From Deinococcales bacterium (GTDB taxonomy: Bacteria; Deinococcota; Deinococci; Deinococcales; JAAFIG01): DNA of 16,553 bases. The stretch spans positions 1 through 16,553 of the forward strand of contig JAYWGM010000081.1 in assembly GCA_043778225.1 (NCBI GenBank), in the 5' to 3' direction. Below are positions 1-12,000 of the stretch, piece by piece (within the stretch, counting starts at the first letter, position 1; each line of letters begins with the position of its first letter). Made by a program: the position numbers.

Positions 1-3000
1 ACTTTGAGGGTTTACCGAGTACAACCGAATCTTGGGCTTATTTGGCGAATATTCAGTTGATTTTGAGACGTTTTGACACTTTATAAACACGCTCTAAGAA
101 AAAACTGTACGATGGGGTTTCTCGACTGGTTGCTCACGGGCTTGGGTTGCTTGCCTCGCCTAACCCTGTACAAGCATAAATAAAAACAGGGCGACCCCCG
201 TCGCTAGACGCTCCGTCGCCCCTACGATTTATGAATTATTTTTCGTCGGTTTCGATACGGTTAAAGCCTTTTGGCGCACCAACTTTATTGGCAATTACTT
301 CCTCGAGGTACTTGACCACATTTTTAAGCGGCACACGGTTCAGCACATCCTCGAGAAACGCCGTGACCAGCATTTTCTCAGCAATGGGTTTGGTAATCCC
401 TCTCGAGCGCAAATAGAACAGTTCTTGTTCATCCACTGGCGCGGTGGTGCTGCCGTGGCTACAACGCACATCGTTGGCGTTAATCTCGAGTTGCGGCACA
501 CTGTCCGAACGGGCTTCGTCGGAAAGCAATAATGTGCGGTTCTTCTGGTAGGCATCGGTTTTTTGTGCGTTTAATTCGACTTTGATTAGCCCCGAAAACA
601 CGCCCCTTGCTTGGTCTGCCAGTACACCCTTAAAGAGCAAATCCGAATGCGCCCGAGGCATAATGTGATGCTGCAAAGTCTGCTGGTCAAAGTGCTGGTC
701 TTTATCAGCAAAGTAAATTGCCAGCATTTCCGAACTCGAATTGGTTTGCAAAGCACTTTGCACCTCGGTTCTGGACAGGCTCGAACCCATTGTTACATAC
801 AAACTATTCAGTACCGCATCCGACTCGAGGTTTGACTTGATGCGCTGAATGTGGGTCACACCACGACCCCAGTTTTGAATTGCCACATAACGCAAATTTG
901 CACCTTTACCAAGGAAAAGTTCAACCACACCAAAATTAGCTGATTTGAGGTCTGGGCTGTCCTGCTCGTCAATATAAGTGACCTTGGCATTCTCCTCGAG
1001 AACCACGAGTGTGCGCGAAGCCACAAAAGCACCGTCCTGCTCGAGATAACGAAAACCACCAAGTGGCAAGTCAAGCTCGACATTTTTTGGCACATACAAG
1101 AAAAAACCGTTCTCCCAAAAAGCAGCGTTTAACGCCGTGAACTTATCTTCGTCCAAATGCGGAATATGTTCATACCGCTCGAGGGCAAGGGCGCTTGGGT
1201 CTGGGTACGCCGCGCCAACCACACTGTACAAATACTTCTGTACAAGGTCTGGGTGTTTCTCGAGGGCGGTTTTGAGGTCTGTAAAAATAACGCCCTTCGA
1301 CTCGAGTTCAGACGGCACATCCGAGTAAATAACAGAATTACCAGACAGCACAATGCGACCAGCCGCATCGGTGCTAGACAAACGCTCACGAATTTTTTCA
1401 GGTAGTGCCTCGAGACTGCTGATTGGGCTAACGGCATTGGCTGGAACGAAATTCTCGGGTTTGAAACGCCGCAGATTCGTGTACTTCCACGCTTCGACTG
1501 CTGTAGAAGGCACAGCGCGGTCAGTGTAAATCTCGAGGGCAGAAGCTCGAGCTTTGAGCAGCCATGCGGGTTCGGCACGGCTCGAGATGGCGGAAAGATT
1601 GAAGGGCGATAGGGTGGTTACTTGGGTCATGATTGATTTTCTCCTAAAAGTGTTATTACAAGCATCGGTTTTCCGTTTTTCCATCAAAGTAAACATGTTT
1701 TGAAGACACAGCTATAGTTCGGTCATTTGGCGTAAAAAACCCATTTTCTCGTGACAATGAATGGTCACTAAGGCAAGCACCTGCAAATTGACCTGAAGTC
1801 ACATCGTAGACCTGCCATTCCAAAGATGGATTTACACGTCGCGTAATTTGCGAGGCAGGGAATAGATCGTTAGGACGAATCTTAGGGTATTGGATACTAA
1901 AACTCCATTCAGAATTTGGCTCTGTATCAGCTTTTGACAAATCGTAAAAGGTGACATACACGACTTCTCCCACTTCGGGAACATTATAGATTAGTATTCG
2001 AGCATTTTTTATTTTTACCTCTTGAAAAGGGAAATCCTTATATCCATTTGGAGATGAAATCAATCGAGACAATAATTCGTTGACCGAAAAATCCAGTCTA
2101 CTTGCATTGGGCAAATTACCAGAACGAGCATAATAATAACGAGGAGGTTGCATACAAGAAACAAAAAGACAAAGAAGGCATATCACAATTAATTTTTTGG
2201 ACATAAAGTTTTCCAGTTTTATCTCGCGTAGGATGGGCTTTGCCCATCAACTTATATCCGACTATCTTCTATTTCTTTCTCGAGCCAAATCACCTTTCGT
2301 AAATTTTGCTTCTATGCCCAACAGCGATGAGCGTCACCACCCGTTCTACTTCATTGACATTAAAAATCAGTCTGTAATCACCAACTCGAGTCCGAAATGA
2401 TTGTCGGTCTGTTAATTTAAGTACACCTTGCTTGAATGGATTCTCGAGAATAAGCTCAACTTCTTTAACAACCCTCTTTTGGATTTCCTCAGGTAAATCT
2501 TCAAACTCTTTATTAAAATGCTTGGAAAGTTGTAAAGCAAACCTCATTTTAAGCCCACTCGAGCCTGAAGTTCTTCAAGTGTTGTCGGGATTACTTCGTC
2601 GTTAGCACGTTCAATAAGAATTTGTTTGTGCCATGTCTCCTCGAGCATTTGTTCGTACTCCTCGAGTGGCAGTAAAACAAAGGTATTTCCTGTCTCATCT
2701 GTAATTTGCTGATGGGCTGTAAGCATTTTTATACTCCTTTCTTCTATTCTTTTCTCGAGCCTTGGCTGCTTGCTAGGTTCTTTCTATCCAATTCTCGAGT
2801 CTCAAACCCCGAATTCTTGCAAAATGCTTTGTATTATCTGTCACCAGTACCGCTTGTTCGTATAAAGCAGTTGCAGCAATTAACGTGTCGGCATCTTCAA
2901 TAAGTTTTCCTTGGGGTTTAAGTTGTTGATAAATTTCGGATGCAGTATCTAAAATTTCTATGTTCAACATAATAATTTCAGCTTTGCTTAGAAAGGCTTT

Positions 3001-9000: not shown

Positions 9001-12000
9001 CTGGAATACCAAGTTTATCAAAAGTGCGTTTAATATCGTCTGGAACATCGTCCCAAGTTCGACTGTTGAGCATATCGGTGGGTTTGATGTAATAATAAAT
9101 GTTCTCGAGGTCAAGCCCACTTAAATCTGCGCCCCATTTTGGAATTGGTTTGCTGCGGTAAATGTCGAGCGCTTTCATGCGAAACTCGAGCATCCAAGCG
9201 GGTTCGTCTTTGGATTTACTAATCAGTTCAACCACGTCTCGAGATAAGCCTTTGGGGGCTTTAATCGTGTATTTTTCTGGTTCTGACCAGCCAAATTCGT
9301 AACCATCGTTAATTTTTCCAACGGCGGCATCGGGGATGTTATCGGAGTATTGTTGGGTCATAAAGCTCCTTGTGAGGCAGGGGTTTTCTCGAGAATGCTG
9401 ATGAACTCTGTATAGCCGAAATCATCCATCATGCCGTTTGAACCGTACTGATAGACACGCAACTTGTATTGAAATCCAGCTTCGTGGGTAAAACCTTTAA
9501 TTGAACCATGAAAAAAAGTATTGCTGACGGAAGTATCGCGGACTTGGATGCAGTTCTGGATAGATTCTGGTGGGGCTGATGGACGTGGGTCGGTGTAGCC
9601 GCCAAAGCCTCCTGAACAAGGCTTGGTCTGTGCTGCGACTTCAACGGTTTTTACAGTCACACTGCGAACATTACAAGCAACCAAAGCTAACGCCAACGGA
9701 ACAAAAAATCTTATCTTCATATTGCCTCCACTTTGAATTGCCTGCAAAACTTGCTCGAGAATTTAGAACGCAACGACGGGTTGTGCGGCTGCAATAGCTT
9801 TAATTGGTTCGTAGCCGTTTTCCTCGAGTTCTACGGCTAATTCTTTGCCACCAGATTTTACAATGCGTCCATCGACCATGATATGCACCATGTCTGGCAC
9901 AATAAACTCGAGCAGGCGGTTGTAGTGGGTAATCATCAGGGCGCTAAAATTGGCGCTTCGCATCGCGTTGACACCCTTGGCTACAACTTTAAGGGCATCA
10001 ATATCTAAGCCAGAATCGGTTTCGTCCATCAGGGCGCAGCTTGGCTCGAGCATCAGCATTTGCAGGATTTCATTGCGTTTTTTCTCGCCGCCGCTAAAGC
10101 CTTGGTTCAAATAGCGATTGACCCAACTTTCGTCCCAGTCGAGAATCTCGAGGGCGCGGGTCAGTTTTTTATAAAAATCCATAAACTGGACTTCTTGTCC
10201 AGTGCGGGCTTGGATGGCGAGGCGCAGAAAGTTGGCGACCGTCACACCGGGAATTTCGACTGGGTACTGAAACGCCAAGTACAGCCCTTGGCGGGCGCGT
10301 TCGTCTGGCTCAAGTTCGAGGATATTCACGCCGTTGTAAAGTACCTGTCCGCGTTCAATGGTGTATTCGGGTGCGCCAGCAATGGCTTTCACAAGGGTGC
10401 TTTTACCGTTGCCGTTTGGTCCCATAATTGCATGGAATTCACCGGCGGGGACGTGCAGGTTTACACCTTTGAGAATCATTTCGCCGTCTATGCTGACCCA
10501 TAAATCTTTTATTTCGAGGTTCACGTTTTTCTCCTTGGATTCGAGCTTTTGGCGGCTCGAGGAATGCTGATTGCATTATGCTATTAGGAATGATTCCTAA
10601 CTAGAGTTTAGATTACATGAGTTAGGCTGCGAATCTCAAGTCCATAAGTTGGGTTTTGCTATTCATGACCATGTATGTTGCCCTAGGGCTGGTCTACCAA
10701 GTCTTGAGTTGGGCAACCCCGAGGGACTTTCTGGTTTCGGTTTTGGGCTAATGCGTTTTGATGAAATTGACTGCTGCGGAGCGCACCTGCTTTTTTTGGT
10801 CTTTGGTCAGGGCGAGCCTGACTTCTAAAGGCGTGTTATACGCACCTGCCACGGCAACGCGAGTGAACTCATAAGTATCTGTGGCAAGTTTGGTGAGCAC
10901 CGAGGCTGGGCAATCTACCCTCAGCGCTGCGTAGAAACGAACATCGTCTTCGGGGTCTTGACTGAGTAATTCGTATAAATGCGCCGTCAGATTTTGATTT
11001 TGAGTTAATGCCATACGCACACTGAGTTCTGGGTGTTTGGTTAAAGTCTCGAGTAAGGTCGTGGATGTGCTGGTACTTGTGGCGACTGCTTCAACCACGG
11101 TCGGTTGTTTTTGACCAGCCAGCTTCTCGAGGATTGCCGAACTGACATTTGGGTTGTGCGCCAAGGCTTTGAGGATTGTCCATTTGCCGTGTCCACTCAG
11201 GTACTCGAGGGCGGCAACAGGTGTATTGGGATTGCTTGCCACGGCATACTGCACGGTTGGGTCGGGGGTTCGAGCCAACTCGAGTAAACGTGGTGCAAGA
11301 GTTTTTTTGCTTTTGGCTTCTTTTTTTAAGACTGCAATGTCCATAGATTTTTCTCCGATTTTAAGTGCGAATAATGATACCCTCTAAAGTCTGCCGAACC
11401 ACATTTTGTGCCATGGCTTTGGCACTTTTGGCGGTGGTGGTTTTGCTGATTGGACTCTCGAGGAGAATGGTGCTGAGCCCGTGAACCACGCTCCATAAGG
11501 TTAAAGTTAAGTTCTGTGGGTCGCTTTTTTGAATTTGATTGGCAGCCTGTGCCTCGAGAATTGTAGTTTGTAGCACCGCTCGGGCATCTATTCCAGCCAC
11601 CTCGAGCGGGTCTGGAAGTCCGAACGCAGCGCAGAGTTCACGGCGAAACATAAACCGAAATTCGGCATGGTGTTCATAAGCAAACATCACATAAGCAATG
11701 CCAATCTGTTCAAGTTGCTCGAGCGGGCTGTGTTTTTTTTGCTTGGCGTTTTTTAGGGCATCGGTCAGCTTGCGAAAGGCTTCGATTGCCAAGGTACGAA
11801 TTAAATCTTGTTTATCCAAAAAGTGATGGTACGGCGCAGCAGGGGAGACGTTCGCCCGACGAGCCACTTCACGCAACGTAAAGTTGTCCACACCAATTTC
11901 GTTGGCGAGTTCTCGAGCCGCCTCGAGCAAGGTATTTTTAAGGTCGCCGTGGTGATAGCGCTCTGGTTTGACTTGGGTTGCACTTAAACTTGACATTGTT

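What a model noticed while it worked through the whole genome (the two positions that open the first line are those of the whole stretch)
236..9361. Toxin-antitoxin and nuclease cassettes nested at fixed junctions inside essential operons
Core operons of this genome are split by runs of small selfish-type genes on the operon's own strand: 19 genes (6.3 kb, PIN, ParE and antitoxin-like pairs) between sufD and sufB, 15 genes at four junctions of the 14-gene nuo operon, 11 inside the glycine-cleavage operon, and others inside pheST, lipBA, ccm, cox, rfb and the V-ATPase operon. In relatives the same junctions are open but hold other cargo of other sizes, so I read them as heritable 'safe-harbour' hot spots where addiction and defence modules hitch-hike on transcription and on the indispensability of their neighbours. 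New would be operon-internal junctions as a class of variable genomic island, and a lineage in which about 5% of [...]
Evidence so far: Gene map: C81 sufD g03037 236-1630, 19 genes g03038-g03056, sufB g03057 7931-9361; C79 nuo: I|H 45600-46795 (4 genes), H|G 47927-49459 (4), G|F 51840-54767 (4, with an N4/N6 methyltransferase and a 321-aa partner), E|D 56700-58268 (3, with Uma2), all other nuo junctions 120 nt or less; C98 gcvT|H 16676-19968 (8 genes: NT/HEPN, Uma2, PIN...), gcvPA|PB 21916-22800 (HicA + 2); C91 pheS|pheT 3 genes; C86 lipB|lipA NT/HEPN pair; C47 ccmB|C DUF1902, ccmE|F Uma2+Phd; C92 coxL|M 23S_rRNA_IVP; C44 rfbA|B HicAB; C98 atpA|B g03793. tblastn maps of the same operons in 3-4 relatives from three genera: nuo gaps I|H 339 to over 1,200 nt, H|G 606 to over 1,150, G|F 1.07-6.5 kb, E|D 594-1,900 nt with partly [...]
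(Added by a program. Inside this text positions count along the whole contig: contig position 1 is position 1 of the stretch shown here. "Call 12" and the like, gene names such as g00115 and contig names such as C1 are that model's own, and its searches are not shown. The text may have been shortened before it was handed on; [...] marks where a part breaks off. The agent that wrote the report below was given it as the finding of a first reader that could run no searches.)

Follow-up and report, generated by a model that had tools for sequence, protein, structure and literature searches.

The report
Toxin-antitoxin cassette array splitting suf operon
In an uncultured freshwater Deinococcales lineage, small selfish toxin-antitoxin and defence genes sit in ever-changing, same-strand arrays between the genes of essential operons; this is real, but it looks like a large-scale version of the "minimal mobile elements" already known from Neisseria rather than a new kind of genomic island.

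Summary
Observation confirmed. Between sufB (7931-9361) and sufD (236-1630) lie 6,300 nt with 19 same-strand ORFs: three antitoxin/PIN pairs, two Phd-like/ParE pairs, one DUF4258-like pair, orphans and remnants (a 27-codon PIN stub, a DUF5674 tail, a 99-nt copy of the sufD start) and two unrelated lipoprotein genes. The host is an uncultured Deinococcales family. All 10 relatives with both genes on one contig carry 1.4-3.2 kb of other cassette sets there. In other families of the order, 26 of 27 listed pairs are adjacent. Interruptions of nuo, gcv, lipBA, ccm and rfb were confirmed; the ribosomal-protein operon is unbroken. Shared cassettes are under purifying selection (dN/dS 0.01-0.15) and about as diverged as suf itself, so they are old, inherited residents. 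Cassette borders are short repeats private to this locus. The sufD fragment joins a cassette leader at a 16-nt microhomology, which points to flank-anchored, homology-facilitated illegitimate recombination. No integrase gene lies on the contig and no attC-like fold was found. Genome-wide, these genes are no more co-oriented or nested than ordinary genes. I read this as an operon-internal variant of minimal mobile elements and core defence hotspots. This scan had already noted the genome's CTCGAG hyper-abundance on other DNA; its role at the joints stays open.

The parts
9763..10524 (-). sufC (ABC ATPase), first gene of the sufC-sufB-sufD operon
   Evidence: Pfam ABC_tran 8e-23; 74-97% identical in relatives
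9358..9747 (-). DUF4377 lipoprotein cassette inserted between sufC and sufB, bracketed by CTCGAG at 9754-9759 and 9388-9393
   Evidence: Pfam DUF4377 8.9e-9. The empty site in L008 has one CTCGAG; the occupied sites in the window and L004 have the insert between two
7931..9361 (-). sufB, conserved upstream flank of the array
   Evidence: SUFBD_core 3.6e-87; 91-99.5% aa identity in relatives
7781..7918 (-). 45-aa ORF: 3' remnant of a DUF5674 gene that is full length (116-132 aa) right after sufB in L005, L007 and L016
   Evidence: BLASTP to the C-terminus of L007:8000-8350, 52% over 27 aa, E 1e-9; DUF5674 3.4e-22 and 4.6e-26 for L005 and L016
7455..7784 (-). 109-aa ORF of no known family, the partner that follows DUF5674 in relatives
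   Evidence: 64-66% identical in L007 and L009; no Pfam, NCBIfam or PADLOC hit
7182..7421 (-). 79-aa ORF, paralogue of 6245-6520, no known family
   Evidence: 92% identical in L002; dN/dS 0.07
6878..7120 (-). ant4: orphan antitoxin of the 'ant' family
   Evidence: Aligns with ant1-3 (A1); its PIN partner is truncated
6795..6875 (-). 27-codon remnant of a PIN gene N-terminus
   Evidence: Translation; 50% identity to PIN1 residues 3-20, E 2e-4; the same stub occurs in L003
6478..6792 (-). 104-aa ORF, weak DUF4258-like; overlaps its partner by 43 nt
   Evidence: Pfam DUF4258 0.0034, below cut-off; 91% identical in L003, dN/dS 0.07
6245..6520 (-). 91-aa ORF (true start probably internal), partner of 6478-6792
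   Evidence: 93-97% identical in L003, dN/dS 0.014
5972..6187 (-). ant3, antitoxin of PIN3
   Evidence: Overlaps PIN3 by 20 nt; 87% identical in L005
5551..5991 (-). PIN3 toxin
   Evidence: Pfam PIN 9.9e-11
5201..5440 (-). ant2, antitoxin of PIN2
   Evidence: Abuts PIN2; member of alignment A1
4790..5200 (-). PIN2 toxin
   Evidence: Pfam PIN 2.5e-14
4463..4720 (-). Phd-like antitoxin 2
   Evidence: 4-nt overlap with ParE2; 79% identical in L004
4194..4466 (-). ParE-like toxin 2
   Evidence: Pfam ParE 0.0012, below cut-off; 94% identical in L004, dN/dS 0.033
4111..4167 (-). D7 element, copy b: conserved non-coding element with a short hairpin
   Evidence: 88% identical to copy a; 87-91% to relatives
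3560..4072 (-). lipoprotein gene B, a former 'last slot' gene
   Evidence: Lipobox-like N-terminus; 30% identical (E 1e-16) to the ORF next to sufD in L011; GC 0.353, 1 CTCGAG
3458..3556 (-). sufD': 99-nt copy of the sufD start (from -7 to +92), joined to the ant1 leader
   Evidence: 88% identical to 1536-1634; 90.5% to the sufD start of L001; joint lies within a 16-nt stretch beginning with CTCGAG
3177..3434 (-). ant1, antitoxin of PIN1
   Evidence: 4-nt overlap with PIN1; 91% identical in L004 and L005; predicted complex ipSAE 0.88, best control 0.00
2773..3180 (-). PIN1 toxin
   Evidence: Pfam PIN 1.9e-15; D6, E43 and D98 invariant in 11 sequences
2544..2726 (-). Phd-like antitoxin 1
   Evidence: Pfam PhdYeFM 8.7e-4, below cut-off; 4-nt overlap with ParE1
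2290..2547 (-). ParE toxin 1
   Evidence: Pfam ParE_toxin 1.5e-9, above cut-off
2215..2271 (-). D7 element, copy a
   Evidence: 94.8-97.8% identical in six relatives' loci; only in genus g1, 1-2 per genome, at suf arrays
1656..2204 (-). lipoprotein gene A, current occupant of the hypervariable slot just upstream of sufD
   Evidence: No homologue in any relative's locus; unrelated to lipoprotein B; 0 CTCGAG in 549 nt (P 0.034), GC 0.381
236..1630 (-). sufD, conserved downstream flank
   Evidence: SUFBD_core 1.1e-78
185..202 (-). terminator-like hairpin plus T-run after sufD
   Evidence: no terminator-like site on this strand inside the cargo, 1631-7930
2742..2774 (-). Reference copy of the 33-nt border repeat R; the other copies are at 2267-2299, 4162-4194, 4751-4783, 5471-5503, 6213-6245 and 7149-7181
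   Evidence: Each copy lies just 3' of a toxin-side stop codon. Related to the PIN 3' coding end plus flank

Best explanation
The sufB|sufD junction of this Deinococcales family is a long-lived hot spot of the 'minimal mobile element' / core-hotspot type. Two highly conserved essential genes frame a head-to-tail array of small, self-contained cassettes: type II toxin-antitoxin pairs, plus one fast-turning slot for single defence-like or lipoprotein genes.

Shown: the array is inherited and its shared cassettes are kept by purifying selection. Its composition differs in every relative. It contains decay products and a duplicated piece of the flank. Its borders are short direct repeats private to this locus.

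Inferred: content changes by (i) allelic exchange anchored in the conserved flanks or in shared cassettes; (ii) occasional one-sided, homology-facilitated illegitimate joins at microhomologies of 9-19 nt, which often begin with this lineage's hyper-abundant CTCGAG; and (iii) deletion or duplication between the short border repeats. Selection for expression of the downstream essential gene then leaves only co-oriented, terminator-free inserts inside true operons. Addiction by the TA pairs, and the lethality of imprecise deletions, slow their loss.
For: Same junction, different content: 10 of 10 relatives have 1,359-3,174 nt (window 6,300 nt), built from the same family pool in other orders.

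Family-specific opening: 26 of 27 listed same-contig sufB/sufD pairs in other families are adjacent. The exception (G051) holds two ParE-type pairs on the same strand.

Old residents under selection: 12 cassette comparisons give dN/dS 0.014-0.149 and dS 0.48-1.25, against sufB/C/D at 0.034-0.062 and 0.61-0.77. CTCGAG density in the array is 5.1/kb against 6.2/kb genome-wide.

Turnover: the slot before sufD holds 12 unrelated families in 16 genomes, among them RRXRR+HNH, PLD and trypsin-like proteins.

Recombination scars: sufD' (99 nt, 88%) is joined to the ant1 leader inside a 16-nt shared stretch. A relative of the gene just upstream of it (lipoB, 30% identical) abuts sufD in L011. There is also a PIN stub and a DUF5674 tail.

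Border repeats: cassettes in suf arrays are flanked by direct repeats of 9-19 nt, and empty sites carry one copy. Examples are DUF4377; L013 against L017; Phd2-ParE2 in L004 against L005; and D7 in L001 against L003.

No dedicated machinery nearby: the 3 tyrosine recombinases lie on other contigs, and the borders do not fold like attC (z from +0.87 to -1.69). R and D7 are private to this locus.

Polarity filter: no sense-strand terminator-like site inside the cargo. All family-assigned cargo in the 13 verified operon junctions is co-oriented, against 35 of 51 same-strand-flank junctions genome-wide.

The unnamed upstream ORFs behave as antitoxins: ant1+PIN1 score ipSAE 0.88, best of 3 controls 0.00. 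That mark is reached by 116 of 157 solved complexes and 2 of 215 mismatched pairs. The runs agree in at least 98% of contacts and partner pLDDT is at least 86. VapBC-like complexes are solved, so the pass may reflect likeness only.

Published analogues: the MME definition (PMC3082526, passages) and sequential displacement by HFIR leaving remnants (PMC5361080, passages).
Against: - No transfer event was caught in the act. All relatives are different species (82-88% nt identity in suf genes), so gain, loss and exchange cannot be ordered.
- Natural competence of this lineage was not tested.
- One scar (sufD') is the only clear illegitimate joint, and the anchor side (sufB or sufD) cannot be told.
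- Cassette dS close to suf dS fits pure vertical descent with differential loss for the shared part.
- In nuo, only about 2 of 20 indel borders touch CTCGAG, and the nuo and gcv arrays have no border repeats. The repeat-based part may therefore hold for suf alone.
- Co-transcription is not shown.
- Gene calls for the genome-wide context test are crude ORF calls.
Confidence: 0.58

Rival explanations
1. CTCGAG-guided shuffling. The lineage's hyper-abundant palindrome CTCGAG (one per about 160 nt) is itself the crossover point. It would act either as ubiquitous portable microhomology or as the target of a CTCGAG-specific nuclease whose cohesive ends let cassettes be cut out and ligated in.
For: The DUF4377 insert sits exactly between two CTCGAG, and the empty site has one. 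The sufD'/ant1-leader joint starts at CTCGAG. The left edge of D7 is at CTCGAG in five different left contexts. By my reading of the 11 distinct suf-array indels among the 25 events, 4 have CTCGAG-led repeats at both ends and 4 at one end. Both features, the word and the split operons, are specific to the same family.
Against: CTCGAG is so dense that some coincidence is expected. The suf events are not independent: several share one border element that merely contains the word. In nuo only about 2 of 20 borders touch it. No XhoI-family endonuclease was found, though the genome is 89% complete and the control rang nowhere. The HSP-end enrichment (121 of 865 against 35 +/- 5.9) is confounded by CTCGAG being the best-conserved word in diverged homologues.
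Confidence: 0.15
2. Ancient array with differential loss only. One large array was assembled once at the base of the family, and today's differences are deletions and drift with no continuing gain.
For: Shared cassettes are as diverged as sufB/C/D. The PIN stub and its neighbours are shared by the window and L003. G030 has lost cargo at three nuo junctions, leaving a 119-nt scar. CTCGAG density in the cassettes is near host level.
Against: The last slot holds 12 unrelated families in 16 genomes. lipoA has no CTCGAG and low GC. The sufD' duplication requires an insertion or unequal exchange. An ancestral array holding every cassette seen would be far larger than any array observed.
Confidence: 0.12
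3. Integron-like system. R is an attC-like site used by a site-specific recombinase, and the operon promoter plays the part of Pc.
For: Head-to-tail, co-oriented cassettes are separated by a conserved short repeat. Tandem empty repeat units occur in relatives. Chromosomal integrons are known to carry TA cassettes (recalled, not looked up here).
Against: No integrase lies on the contig; the 3 tyrosine recombinases are on C75, C93 and C32. The borders have no attC-like imperfect inverted repeat or fold. R is private to one locus and looks derived from a PIN gene's 3' end. The nuo and gcv arrays lack any such repeat.
Confidence: 0.05
4. Domesticated regulators. The cargo genes are functional parts of the host operons, for example stress switches for Fe-S assembly or respiration.
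For: Strong purifying selection; co-orientation; long residence.
Against: Content differs in every relative. The same families sit in unrelated operons and outside operons. Remnants and orphans show decay.
Confidence: 0.04
5. Assembly or binning artefact joining unrelated DNA.
For: The genome is a metagenome-assembled genome of 107 contigs; repeats end many contigs.
Against: Single contigs from two samples bridge 479-8480 without a difference. 10 independent assemblies of relatives show the same architecture. The cassettes carry the host's CTCGAG signature.
Confidence: 0.01

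Closest known systems
Minimal mobile elements (MMEs) of Neisseria (Saunders & Snyder 2002; Snyder et al. 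2007; seen here only as cited and defined in PMC3082526, passages)
   Same: [quoted passage not shown] The site carries no mobility genes of its own, and incorporation is by homologous recombination. One classic site is inside an operon (pheS/pheT) and holds an R-M system.
   Different: Here many sites lie inside multi-subunit essential operons (nuo x4, suf x2, gcv x3, ccm x2, lipBA, rfb). They hold arrays of up to 19 co-oriented ORFs dominated by TA pairs. The comparison is between species of a family, not strains. The suf array has its own conserved border repeats and flank remnants.
T6SS effector-immunity arrays of Vibrio cholerae built by sequential displacement (Kirchberger et al. 2017, PMC5361080, passages)
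   Same: Arrays grow next to a conserved anchor gene. The proposed mechanism is homology-facilitated illegitimate recombination. Displaced remnants and orphan protective genes stay behind, as with ant4, the PIN stub and sufD' here.
   Different: The cargo there is effector-immunity modules linked in function to the flanking T6SS genes. Here the cargo is unrelated to Fe-S assembly and sits between two essential genes that must both stay expressed.
Core defence hotspots of Pseudomonas aeruginosa (cDHS1 near pheS/pheT; bioRxiv 10.1101/2022.11.11.516204, passages)
   Same: The locus is present in nearly all genomes and is marked by conserved core genes. Its content is highly variable defence genes, with lower GC than the genome. 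Transfer through the conserved flanks is suggested.
   Different: cDHS are tens of kb and lie beside tRNA or tmRNA genes, not between cistrons of one operon. The sites here are 0.3-6.6 kb, co-oriented and terminator-free.
Chromosomal (sedentary) integrons with TA cassettes (recalled; no paper read here)
   Same: A co-oriented cassette array with a short repeat after each cassette, with TA cassettes among the cargo.
   Different: No adjacent intI and no attC-like structure. The repeat is private to one locus.
R-M gene insertion with long target duplication
   Same: A duplicated end of the neighbouring gene keeps that gene whole beside the insert, as sufD' does here.
   Different: Here the duplicate is the 5' end of the downstream gene, and it now lies in the middle of an array.

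Membership tests
Minimal mobile element / core hotspot | Two conserved genes flank the site in all genomes | tested here: met
   sufB and sufD flank it in the window and in 10 of 10 relatives with both genes on one contig
Minimal mobile element / core hotspot | Different whole-gene cassettes in different genomes | tested here: met
   No two of 11 arrays are alike; 12 families fill the last slot in 16 genomes
Minimal mobile element / core hotspot | No mobility genes within the site | tested here: met
   No integrase or transposase family among 18 cargo ORFs; tyrosine recombinases only on C75, C93 and C32
Minimal mobile element / core hotspot | Incorporated by homologous recombination through the flanks | tested here: inconclusive
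   Inferred from the sufD' scar and border repeats; no transfer tract or recent event was seen
Homology-facilitated illegitimate recombination product | A joint between non-homologous DNA at a short microhomology, beside a region of true homology | tested here: met
   sufD' is homologous to sufD for 99 nt, then joins the ant1 leader within a 16-nt shared stretch
Homology-facilitated illegitimate recombination product | Uptake of foreign DNA by natural transformation | not tested
   Competence genes were not searched; competence of cultured Deinococcus and Thermus is recalled only
Integron | intI integrase with attI adjacent to the array | tested here: not met
   None on contig C81; upstream genes are an LRV/HEAT repeat protein, TetR and SUKH
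Integron | attC sites: imperfect inverted repeats that fold as single strands | tested here: not met
   7 inter-cassette stretches folded as DNA give z-scores from +0.87 to -1.69; no inverted repeat within them
Type II TA, VapBC-like (PIN) | PIN domain with conserved acidic residues | tested here: met
   PIN 1.9e-15, 2.5e-14 and 9.9e-11; D6, E43 and D98 invariant in 11 sequences. The position in the C-terminal K-H-F motif where I recall a fourth acidic residue is His in all 11
Type II TA, VapBC-like (PIN) | Small upstream partner, translationally coupled, that binds the toxin | tested here: met
   Overlaps or abutment of 4, 0 and 20 nt. Model only: ipSAE 0.88 against best control 0.00; that mark is reached by 116 of 157 solved and 2 of 215 mismatched pairs; this may reflect likeness to solved VapBC
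Type II TA, VapBC-like (PIN) | Toxin arrests growth and antitoxin neutralises it | not testable with these tools
   Needs expression assays
Type II TA, Phd/ParE-like | ParE/RelE-fold toxin preceded by a Phd/YefM-type antitoxin | tested here: inconclusive
   ParE1 38.7 bits (cut-off 23) is met. ParE2 at 19.8 bits and Phd1 at 19.4 bits are below cut-off, and Phd2 has no hit. Both pairs overlap by 4 nt

The most novel reading that the evidence does not exclude
The family-wide hyper-abundant palindrome CTCGAG is not only a compositional oddity. It works as a genome-wide lattice of crossover points, as shared microhomology or as a nuclease target. This lattice would let small cassettes be inserted, excised and swapped precisely between cistrons without any element-encoded recombinase. 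It would explain why this one family combines a HIP1-like word with essential operons riddled by cassette arrays, and it would give highly iterated palindromes a function.
Probability: 0.15. Interest if true: 0.85.

Novelty: new variant of a known kind. Interest (0 to 1): 0.55.

Why it matters
Operons for complex I, Fe-S assembly and glycine cleavage are textbook examples of tightly packed, co-translated gene sets. Here a whole bacterial family has tolerated kilobases of selfish and defence genes between their cistrons for as long as its species have existed.

- **Scale.** Hot spots of the minimal-mobile-element type can colonise the inside of essential operons on a large scale. The price appears to be only a polarity filter: inserts must share the strand and carry no terminator.
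- **Mechanism.** The suf array shows how such sites can be remodelled without any mobile-element machinery, through its border repeats, a duplicated flank fragment, and orphan and truncated cassettes.
- **Practical use.** These junctions are easy to find from their conserved flanks. They are rich in small proteins with no family assignment: in the window, 9 of the 18 cargo ORFs sent to Pfam had no hit at all. The one-gene slot before sufD changes in nearly every genome.
- **An open question made testable.** If the CTCGAG link holds, it would offer a function for highly iterated palindromes.

Tried and rejected
- **Integron reading.** No integrase on the contig and no attC-like fold. Rejected.
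- **XhoI-type enzyme.** PF04555 was not found in the 89%-complete genome, but the control rang in no genome, so this says little.
- **Rfam.** No match at E up to 0.1 anywhere in the window.
- **RNA evidence.** No RNA holder was listed, so co-transcription stays untested.
- **Environmental contigs of relatives (X3, X5).** These show alternative joins such as 6220 to 2752 within R, but at depth 2-7 and with 21-56 nt on the shorter side. Too weak to use.
- **HSP-end test.** The enrichment near CTCGAG (121 of 865 against 35 +/- 5.9) was set aside as confounded, because CTCGAG is the best-conserved word in diverged homologues.
- **Self-BLAST of the genome.** It is dominated by dispersed repeats of about 90-180 nt at contig ends, and was not usable for border statistics.
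- **Fuzzy regex for D7.** Timed out; replaced by blastn.
- **Baseline from other phyla (L019-L080).** Not comparable, because their order is sufB-sufC-sufD; gaps of about 800 nt are sufC.
- **Naming the unknown cargo.** NCBIfam gave nothing of use for 27 cargo proteins: 25 had no hit and 2 had hits far below cut-off. The ESM Atlas gave no usable lead for the 79-aa ORF and only a 0.85 lead to DUF2281 for ant1. PADLOC gave one weak hit (ant3, 1.6e-4) among the window's 18 proteins. A PDB sequence search of the nuo-nested restriction enzyme found nothing.
- **Metagenome scan for D7.** No match.
- **First context count.** Replaced, because the crude gene caller had missed gcvT.
- **Dropped row.** The PIN3 versus L005 row (dN/dS 1.19) was dropped because my coordinates put it out of frame.
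- **Wrong locus.** The C91 stretch I fetched as a possible pheS|pheT site was another locus, AAA_21/Schlafen-like.
- **Border repeats elsewhere.** No R-like repeats in the nuo or gcv arrays.

Full report
**What is in the window.**
All genes of interest lie on the minus strand. Read in the direction of transcription they are: sufC (9763-10524), a DUF4377 lipoprotein gene (9358-9747), sufB (7931-9361), 6,300 nt of cargo, sufD (236-1630), and a terminator-like hairpin at 202-185.

Pfam names few of them. Of the 18 ORFs sent, PIN x3 and ParE1 pass the curated cut-off, 5 have weak hits, and 9 have none. NCBIfam and PADLOC add nothing of use.

By position, overlap and conservation the ORFs fall into these groups:
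- three ant/PIN pairs (ant1-PIN1, ant2-PIN2, ant3-PIN3);
- two Phd-like/ParE pairs;
- one pair made of a weak DUF4258-like ORF and a 91-aa ORF;
- a 109-aa ORF followed by a paralogue of that 91-aa ORF;
- an orphan antitoxin (ant4) followed by a 27-codon PIN stub;
- a 45-aa tail of a DUF5674 gene that is full length in relatives;
- two unrelated lipoprotein genes;
- a 99-nt copy of the sufD start.

The 'ant' proteins form one family (alignment A1). A structure model places ant1 on PIN1 with ipSAE 0.88 against 0.00 for the best of 3 controls. That mark is reached by 116 of 157 solved complexes and 2 of 215 mismatched pairs; the runs agree in at least 98% of contacts and partner pLDDT is at least 86. 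VapBC complexes have been solved, so the pass may show likeness only.

**The assembly is sound.**
Single contigs of 8,002 and 7,999 nt from two samples cover 479-8480 without a difference, although one sample may be the source. Ten independent assemblies of relatives show the same architecture.

**Whose genome, and how far the feature goes.**
SufD finds 18 loci of uncultured 'Deinococcales bacterium' MAGs at 81-97% identity; everything else is at or below 35%.

All 10 relatives with sufB and sufD on one contig have cargo between them: 1,359, 1,852, 1,967, 2,095, 2,261, 2,554, 2,563, 2,644, 2,723 and 3,174 nt. The cargo is drawn from the same pool of families, but no two arrays are alike.

In a sample of 121 genomes of the order, the output listed both matches on one contig for 27 genomes outside the window's family. 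In 26 of these the matched segments lie at most 261 nt apart. One (G051) has 1,666 nt (91 further matches were not listed). That one exception holds two ParE-type pairs and a 163-aa ORF on the operon's strand. The junction has therefore been opened at least twice, but only one family keeps it open throughout.

**The other operons.**
Pfam confirms cargo in the nuo operon at D|E, F|G, G|H and H|I. It also confirms cargo at all three gcv junctions, lipB|NT+HEPN|lipA, ccmB|DUF1902|ccmC, ccmE|Uma2..YoeB|ccmF, and rfbA|HicB|rfbB.

PADLOC shows that the nuoF|G cargo includes a complete type II restriction-modification pair (MTase 1e-93, REase 7.7e-88) and a PDC-M52B candidate defence protein.

- D|E is 593-1,942 nt in the 7 genomes, window included, that hold both genes;
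- F|G reaches up to 6,587 nt.

However, G030 is empty at G|H and H|I and keeps only a 119-nt scar at F|G, and G040 is empty at G|H.

As a control chosen beforehand, I looked at the ribosomal-protein operon (C78:147-16565, about 31 genes). It has no gap above 249 nt and no inserted gene. I did not check pheS|pheT, coxL|M, atpA|B, or gcv in relatives.

**Are the cargo genes real and old?**
I compared 12 cassette pairs with their counterparts in L002-L005. They give dN/dS of 0.014-0.149 and dS of 0.48-1.25. The values for sufB, sufC and sufD are 0.034-0.062 and 0.61-0.77 (one mis-framed row was dropped). The shared cassettes are thus functional genes that have diverged roughly in step with the operon.

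They also carry the lineage's compositional mark. CTCGAG occurs 32 times in the array (5.1/kb) against 6.2/kb genome-wide, although GC is only 0.40.

The exception is the gene directly upstream of sufD. lipoA has no CTCGAG in 549 nt (P 0.034) and no relative in any locus. The same slot holds 12 unrelated families in 16 genomes, among them RRXRR+HNH, PLD and trypsin-like proteins.

**How the array is built.**
Each toxin-side stop codon is followed by a 33-nt repeat, R, present in 7 copies. R is confined to this array in the genome and recurs in the arrays of the closest relatives behind unrelated toxin genes. It looks derived from the 3' coding end of a PIN gene plus its flank, and in relatives it occurs as tandem empty units.

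A second element, D7 (57 nt, with a 7-bp hairpin), precedes the last slot. It is 94.8-97.8% identical across six relatives' loci, while synonymous sites of the suf genes differ at 42-48%. It occurs once or twice per genome, only in genus g1. In six of its eight placements it lies on the contig that carries sufB or sufD in that genome. The other two, in G075, resemble locus L003, which carries sufD, and one copy in G010 sits at a contig end. Its function is unexplained.

The nuo and gcv arrays have no such repeats. No integrase lies on the contigs concerned, and the borders do not fold like attC. That excludes an integron.

**The informative scar.**
sufD' matches the start of sufD from 7 nt before the ATG to codon 31 (88%; 90.5% to the sufD of L001). 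It then switches to the leader of ant1. The two homologies overlap in a 16-nt stretch that begins with CTCGAG. The gene just upstream of it, lipoB, has its only relative (30% identity, E 1e-16) directly next to sufD in L011. The module Phd-ParE-R-D7-lipoprotein-sufD-start is present twice in the window.

The simplest reading is that two alleles of the array were joined. One crossover fell in true homology, in a conserved flank. The other was an illegitimate crossover at a microhomology. That is homology-facilitated illegitimate recombination, the mechanism proposed for orphan-immunity arrays in Vibrio cholerae (PMC5361080, passages).

Clean presence/absence comparisons add to this. The DUF4377 cassette sits between two copies of a 9-nt repeat ending in CTCGAG, while L008 has one copy. 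Three further suf-array events show direct repeats of 18-19 nt, or CTCGAG, at both ends.

**What the genome-wide view says.**
With local profiles for 15 cargo families I find 118 ORFs, including 32 PIN and 35 Uma2. They lie in 73 junctions between larger ORFs:
- 35 are co-directionally nested;
- 15 hold opposite-strand cargo;
- 1 is mixed;
- 22 have divergent flanks.

Ordinary genes show the same spread: 1,302 co-directional, 356 opposite, 1,150 with divergent flanks (crude ORF calls). So these genes are not drawn to operon interiors. They are everywhere, and some sit inside operons.

In the 13 operon junctions I verified, every family-assigned cargo gene is co-oriented, against 35 of 51 same-strand-flank junctions genome-wide. 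This fits selection against polarity rather than targeting. Synteny outside operons is poorly kept between these species. Conserved operons may therefore simply be the only frames in which turnover at a fixed place can be seen.

**Comparison with what is known.**
The concept is in print. [quoted passage not shown] Core defence hotspots next to pheS/pheT exist in P. aeruginosa (bioRxiv 10.1101/2022.11.11.516204, passages).

My searches found no paper on TA arrays inside nuo or suf operons, and none on CTCGAG as an iterated palindrome (listings only). Most subscription journals are not in the library.

What is new here:
- the scale and position, with many junctions inside essential multi-subunit operons across a whole family;
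- the array anatomy, with locus-private border repeats and flank remnants.

I rate it a new variant of a known kind.

**The open, bolder reading.**
CTCGAG occurs 99 times in the window against 2.2 expected and 24,877 times in the genome. Its density is 4.4-9.0/kb in all 18 relatives' loci against at most 2.4/kb in 62 other loci. This scan had already noted it on other DNA of this genome (e1-2303518).

Several suf-array joints begin exactly at this word. But they share border elements, the nuo borders mostly do not touch it, and no matching nuclease was found. I give 0.15 to the idea that the word itself is the crossover device.

**Verdict.**
- Observation: confirmed.
- Best explanation (confidence 0.58): a minimal-mobile-element-like hot spot remodelled by flank-anchored and microhomology recombination, filtered by polarity, and held by addiction.
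- Interest: 0.55.

Noticed in passing
whole window and genome: CTCGAG is hyper-abundant: 99 in the window against 2.2 expected, and 24,877 in 4.03 Mb. GGCC-containing hexamers and GACGTC are almost absent (1-2 copies each), which suggests long-standing restriction avoidance.
   Followed up: partly
G000 contig C79:52753-54653 (L081:10753-12653), between nuoF and nuoG: A complete type II restriction-modification pair (PADLOC MTase_II 1e-93, REase_II 7.7e-88) and a PDC-M52B candidate defence protein are nested in the complex I operon. The pair is 86-89% identical at the same junction in G010. Its recognition site is unknown, and it has no PDB relative.
   Followed up: partly
window 2215-2271 and 4111-4167: The D7 element is 94.8-97.8% identical across six relatives' loci, although synonymous sites differ at 42-48%. 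It contains a 7-bp hairpin, has no Rfam match, and is found only in genus g1 at suf arrays. Its function is unexplained; it could be a promoter, a processing site or a protein-binding site.
   Followed up: partly
slot directly upstream of sufD: window 1656-2204; L001-L017: This one-gene slot holds 12 unrelated families in 16 genomes: lipoproteins, RRXRR+HNH (PtuB-like), PLD (DrmC-like), a trypsin-like protease, a membrane protein and several with no family. It is a compact source of unknown, probably defence-related genes.
   Followed up: partly
L086 (G030:C104), nuoF..nuoI: One genome of the same genus (2.3 Mb assembled, 82% complete) has lost the cargo at three nuo junctions. At F|G it keeps a 119-nt spacer that still resembles the first cargo gene of relatives, so the arrays can be purged.
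   Followed up: partly
L091 (G051:C1:2832000-2838500): A genome of another family of the order independently carries two ParE-type TA pairs and a 163-aa ORF between sufB and sufD, on the same strand.
   Followed up: partly
window 1-98 and many contig ends; L081:2288-2312 and 4303-4327: The genome is full of dispersed repeats of 90-180 nt that end many contigs; the window's first 98 nt is one of them. A 25-nt GC-rich hairpin unit occurs twice, identically, in the nuo region: at nuoK|J and within the nuoH|I cargo.
   Followed up: no
window 10748-13027: Upstream of sufC lie an LRV/HEAT-repeat protein, a TetR regulator and a SUKH/SMI1-type protein (an immunity-protein family). A 25-nt direct repeat (11986-12010 and 13112-13136, 92%) flanks the SUKH gene.
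   Followed up: no
alignment A2 (PIN1-3 and relatives): All 11 PIN sequences have His in the C-terminal K-H-F motif, where I recall an Asp in many VapC toxins. D6, E43 and D98 are invariant.
   Followed up: no
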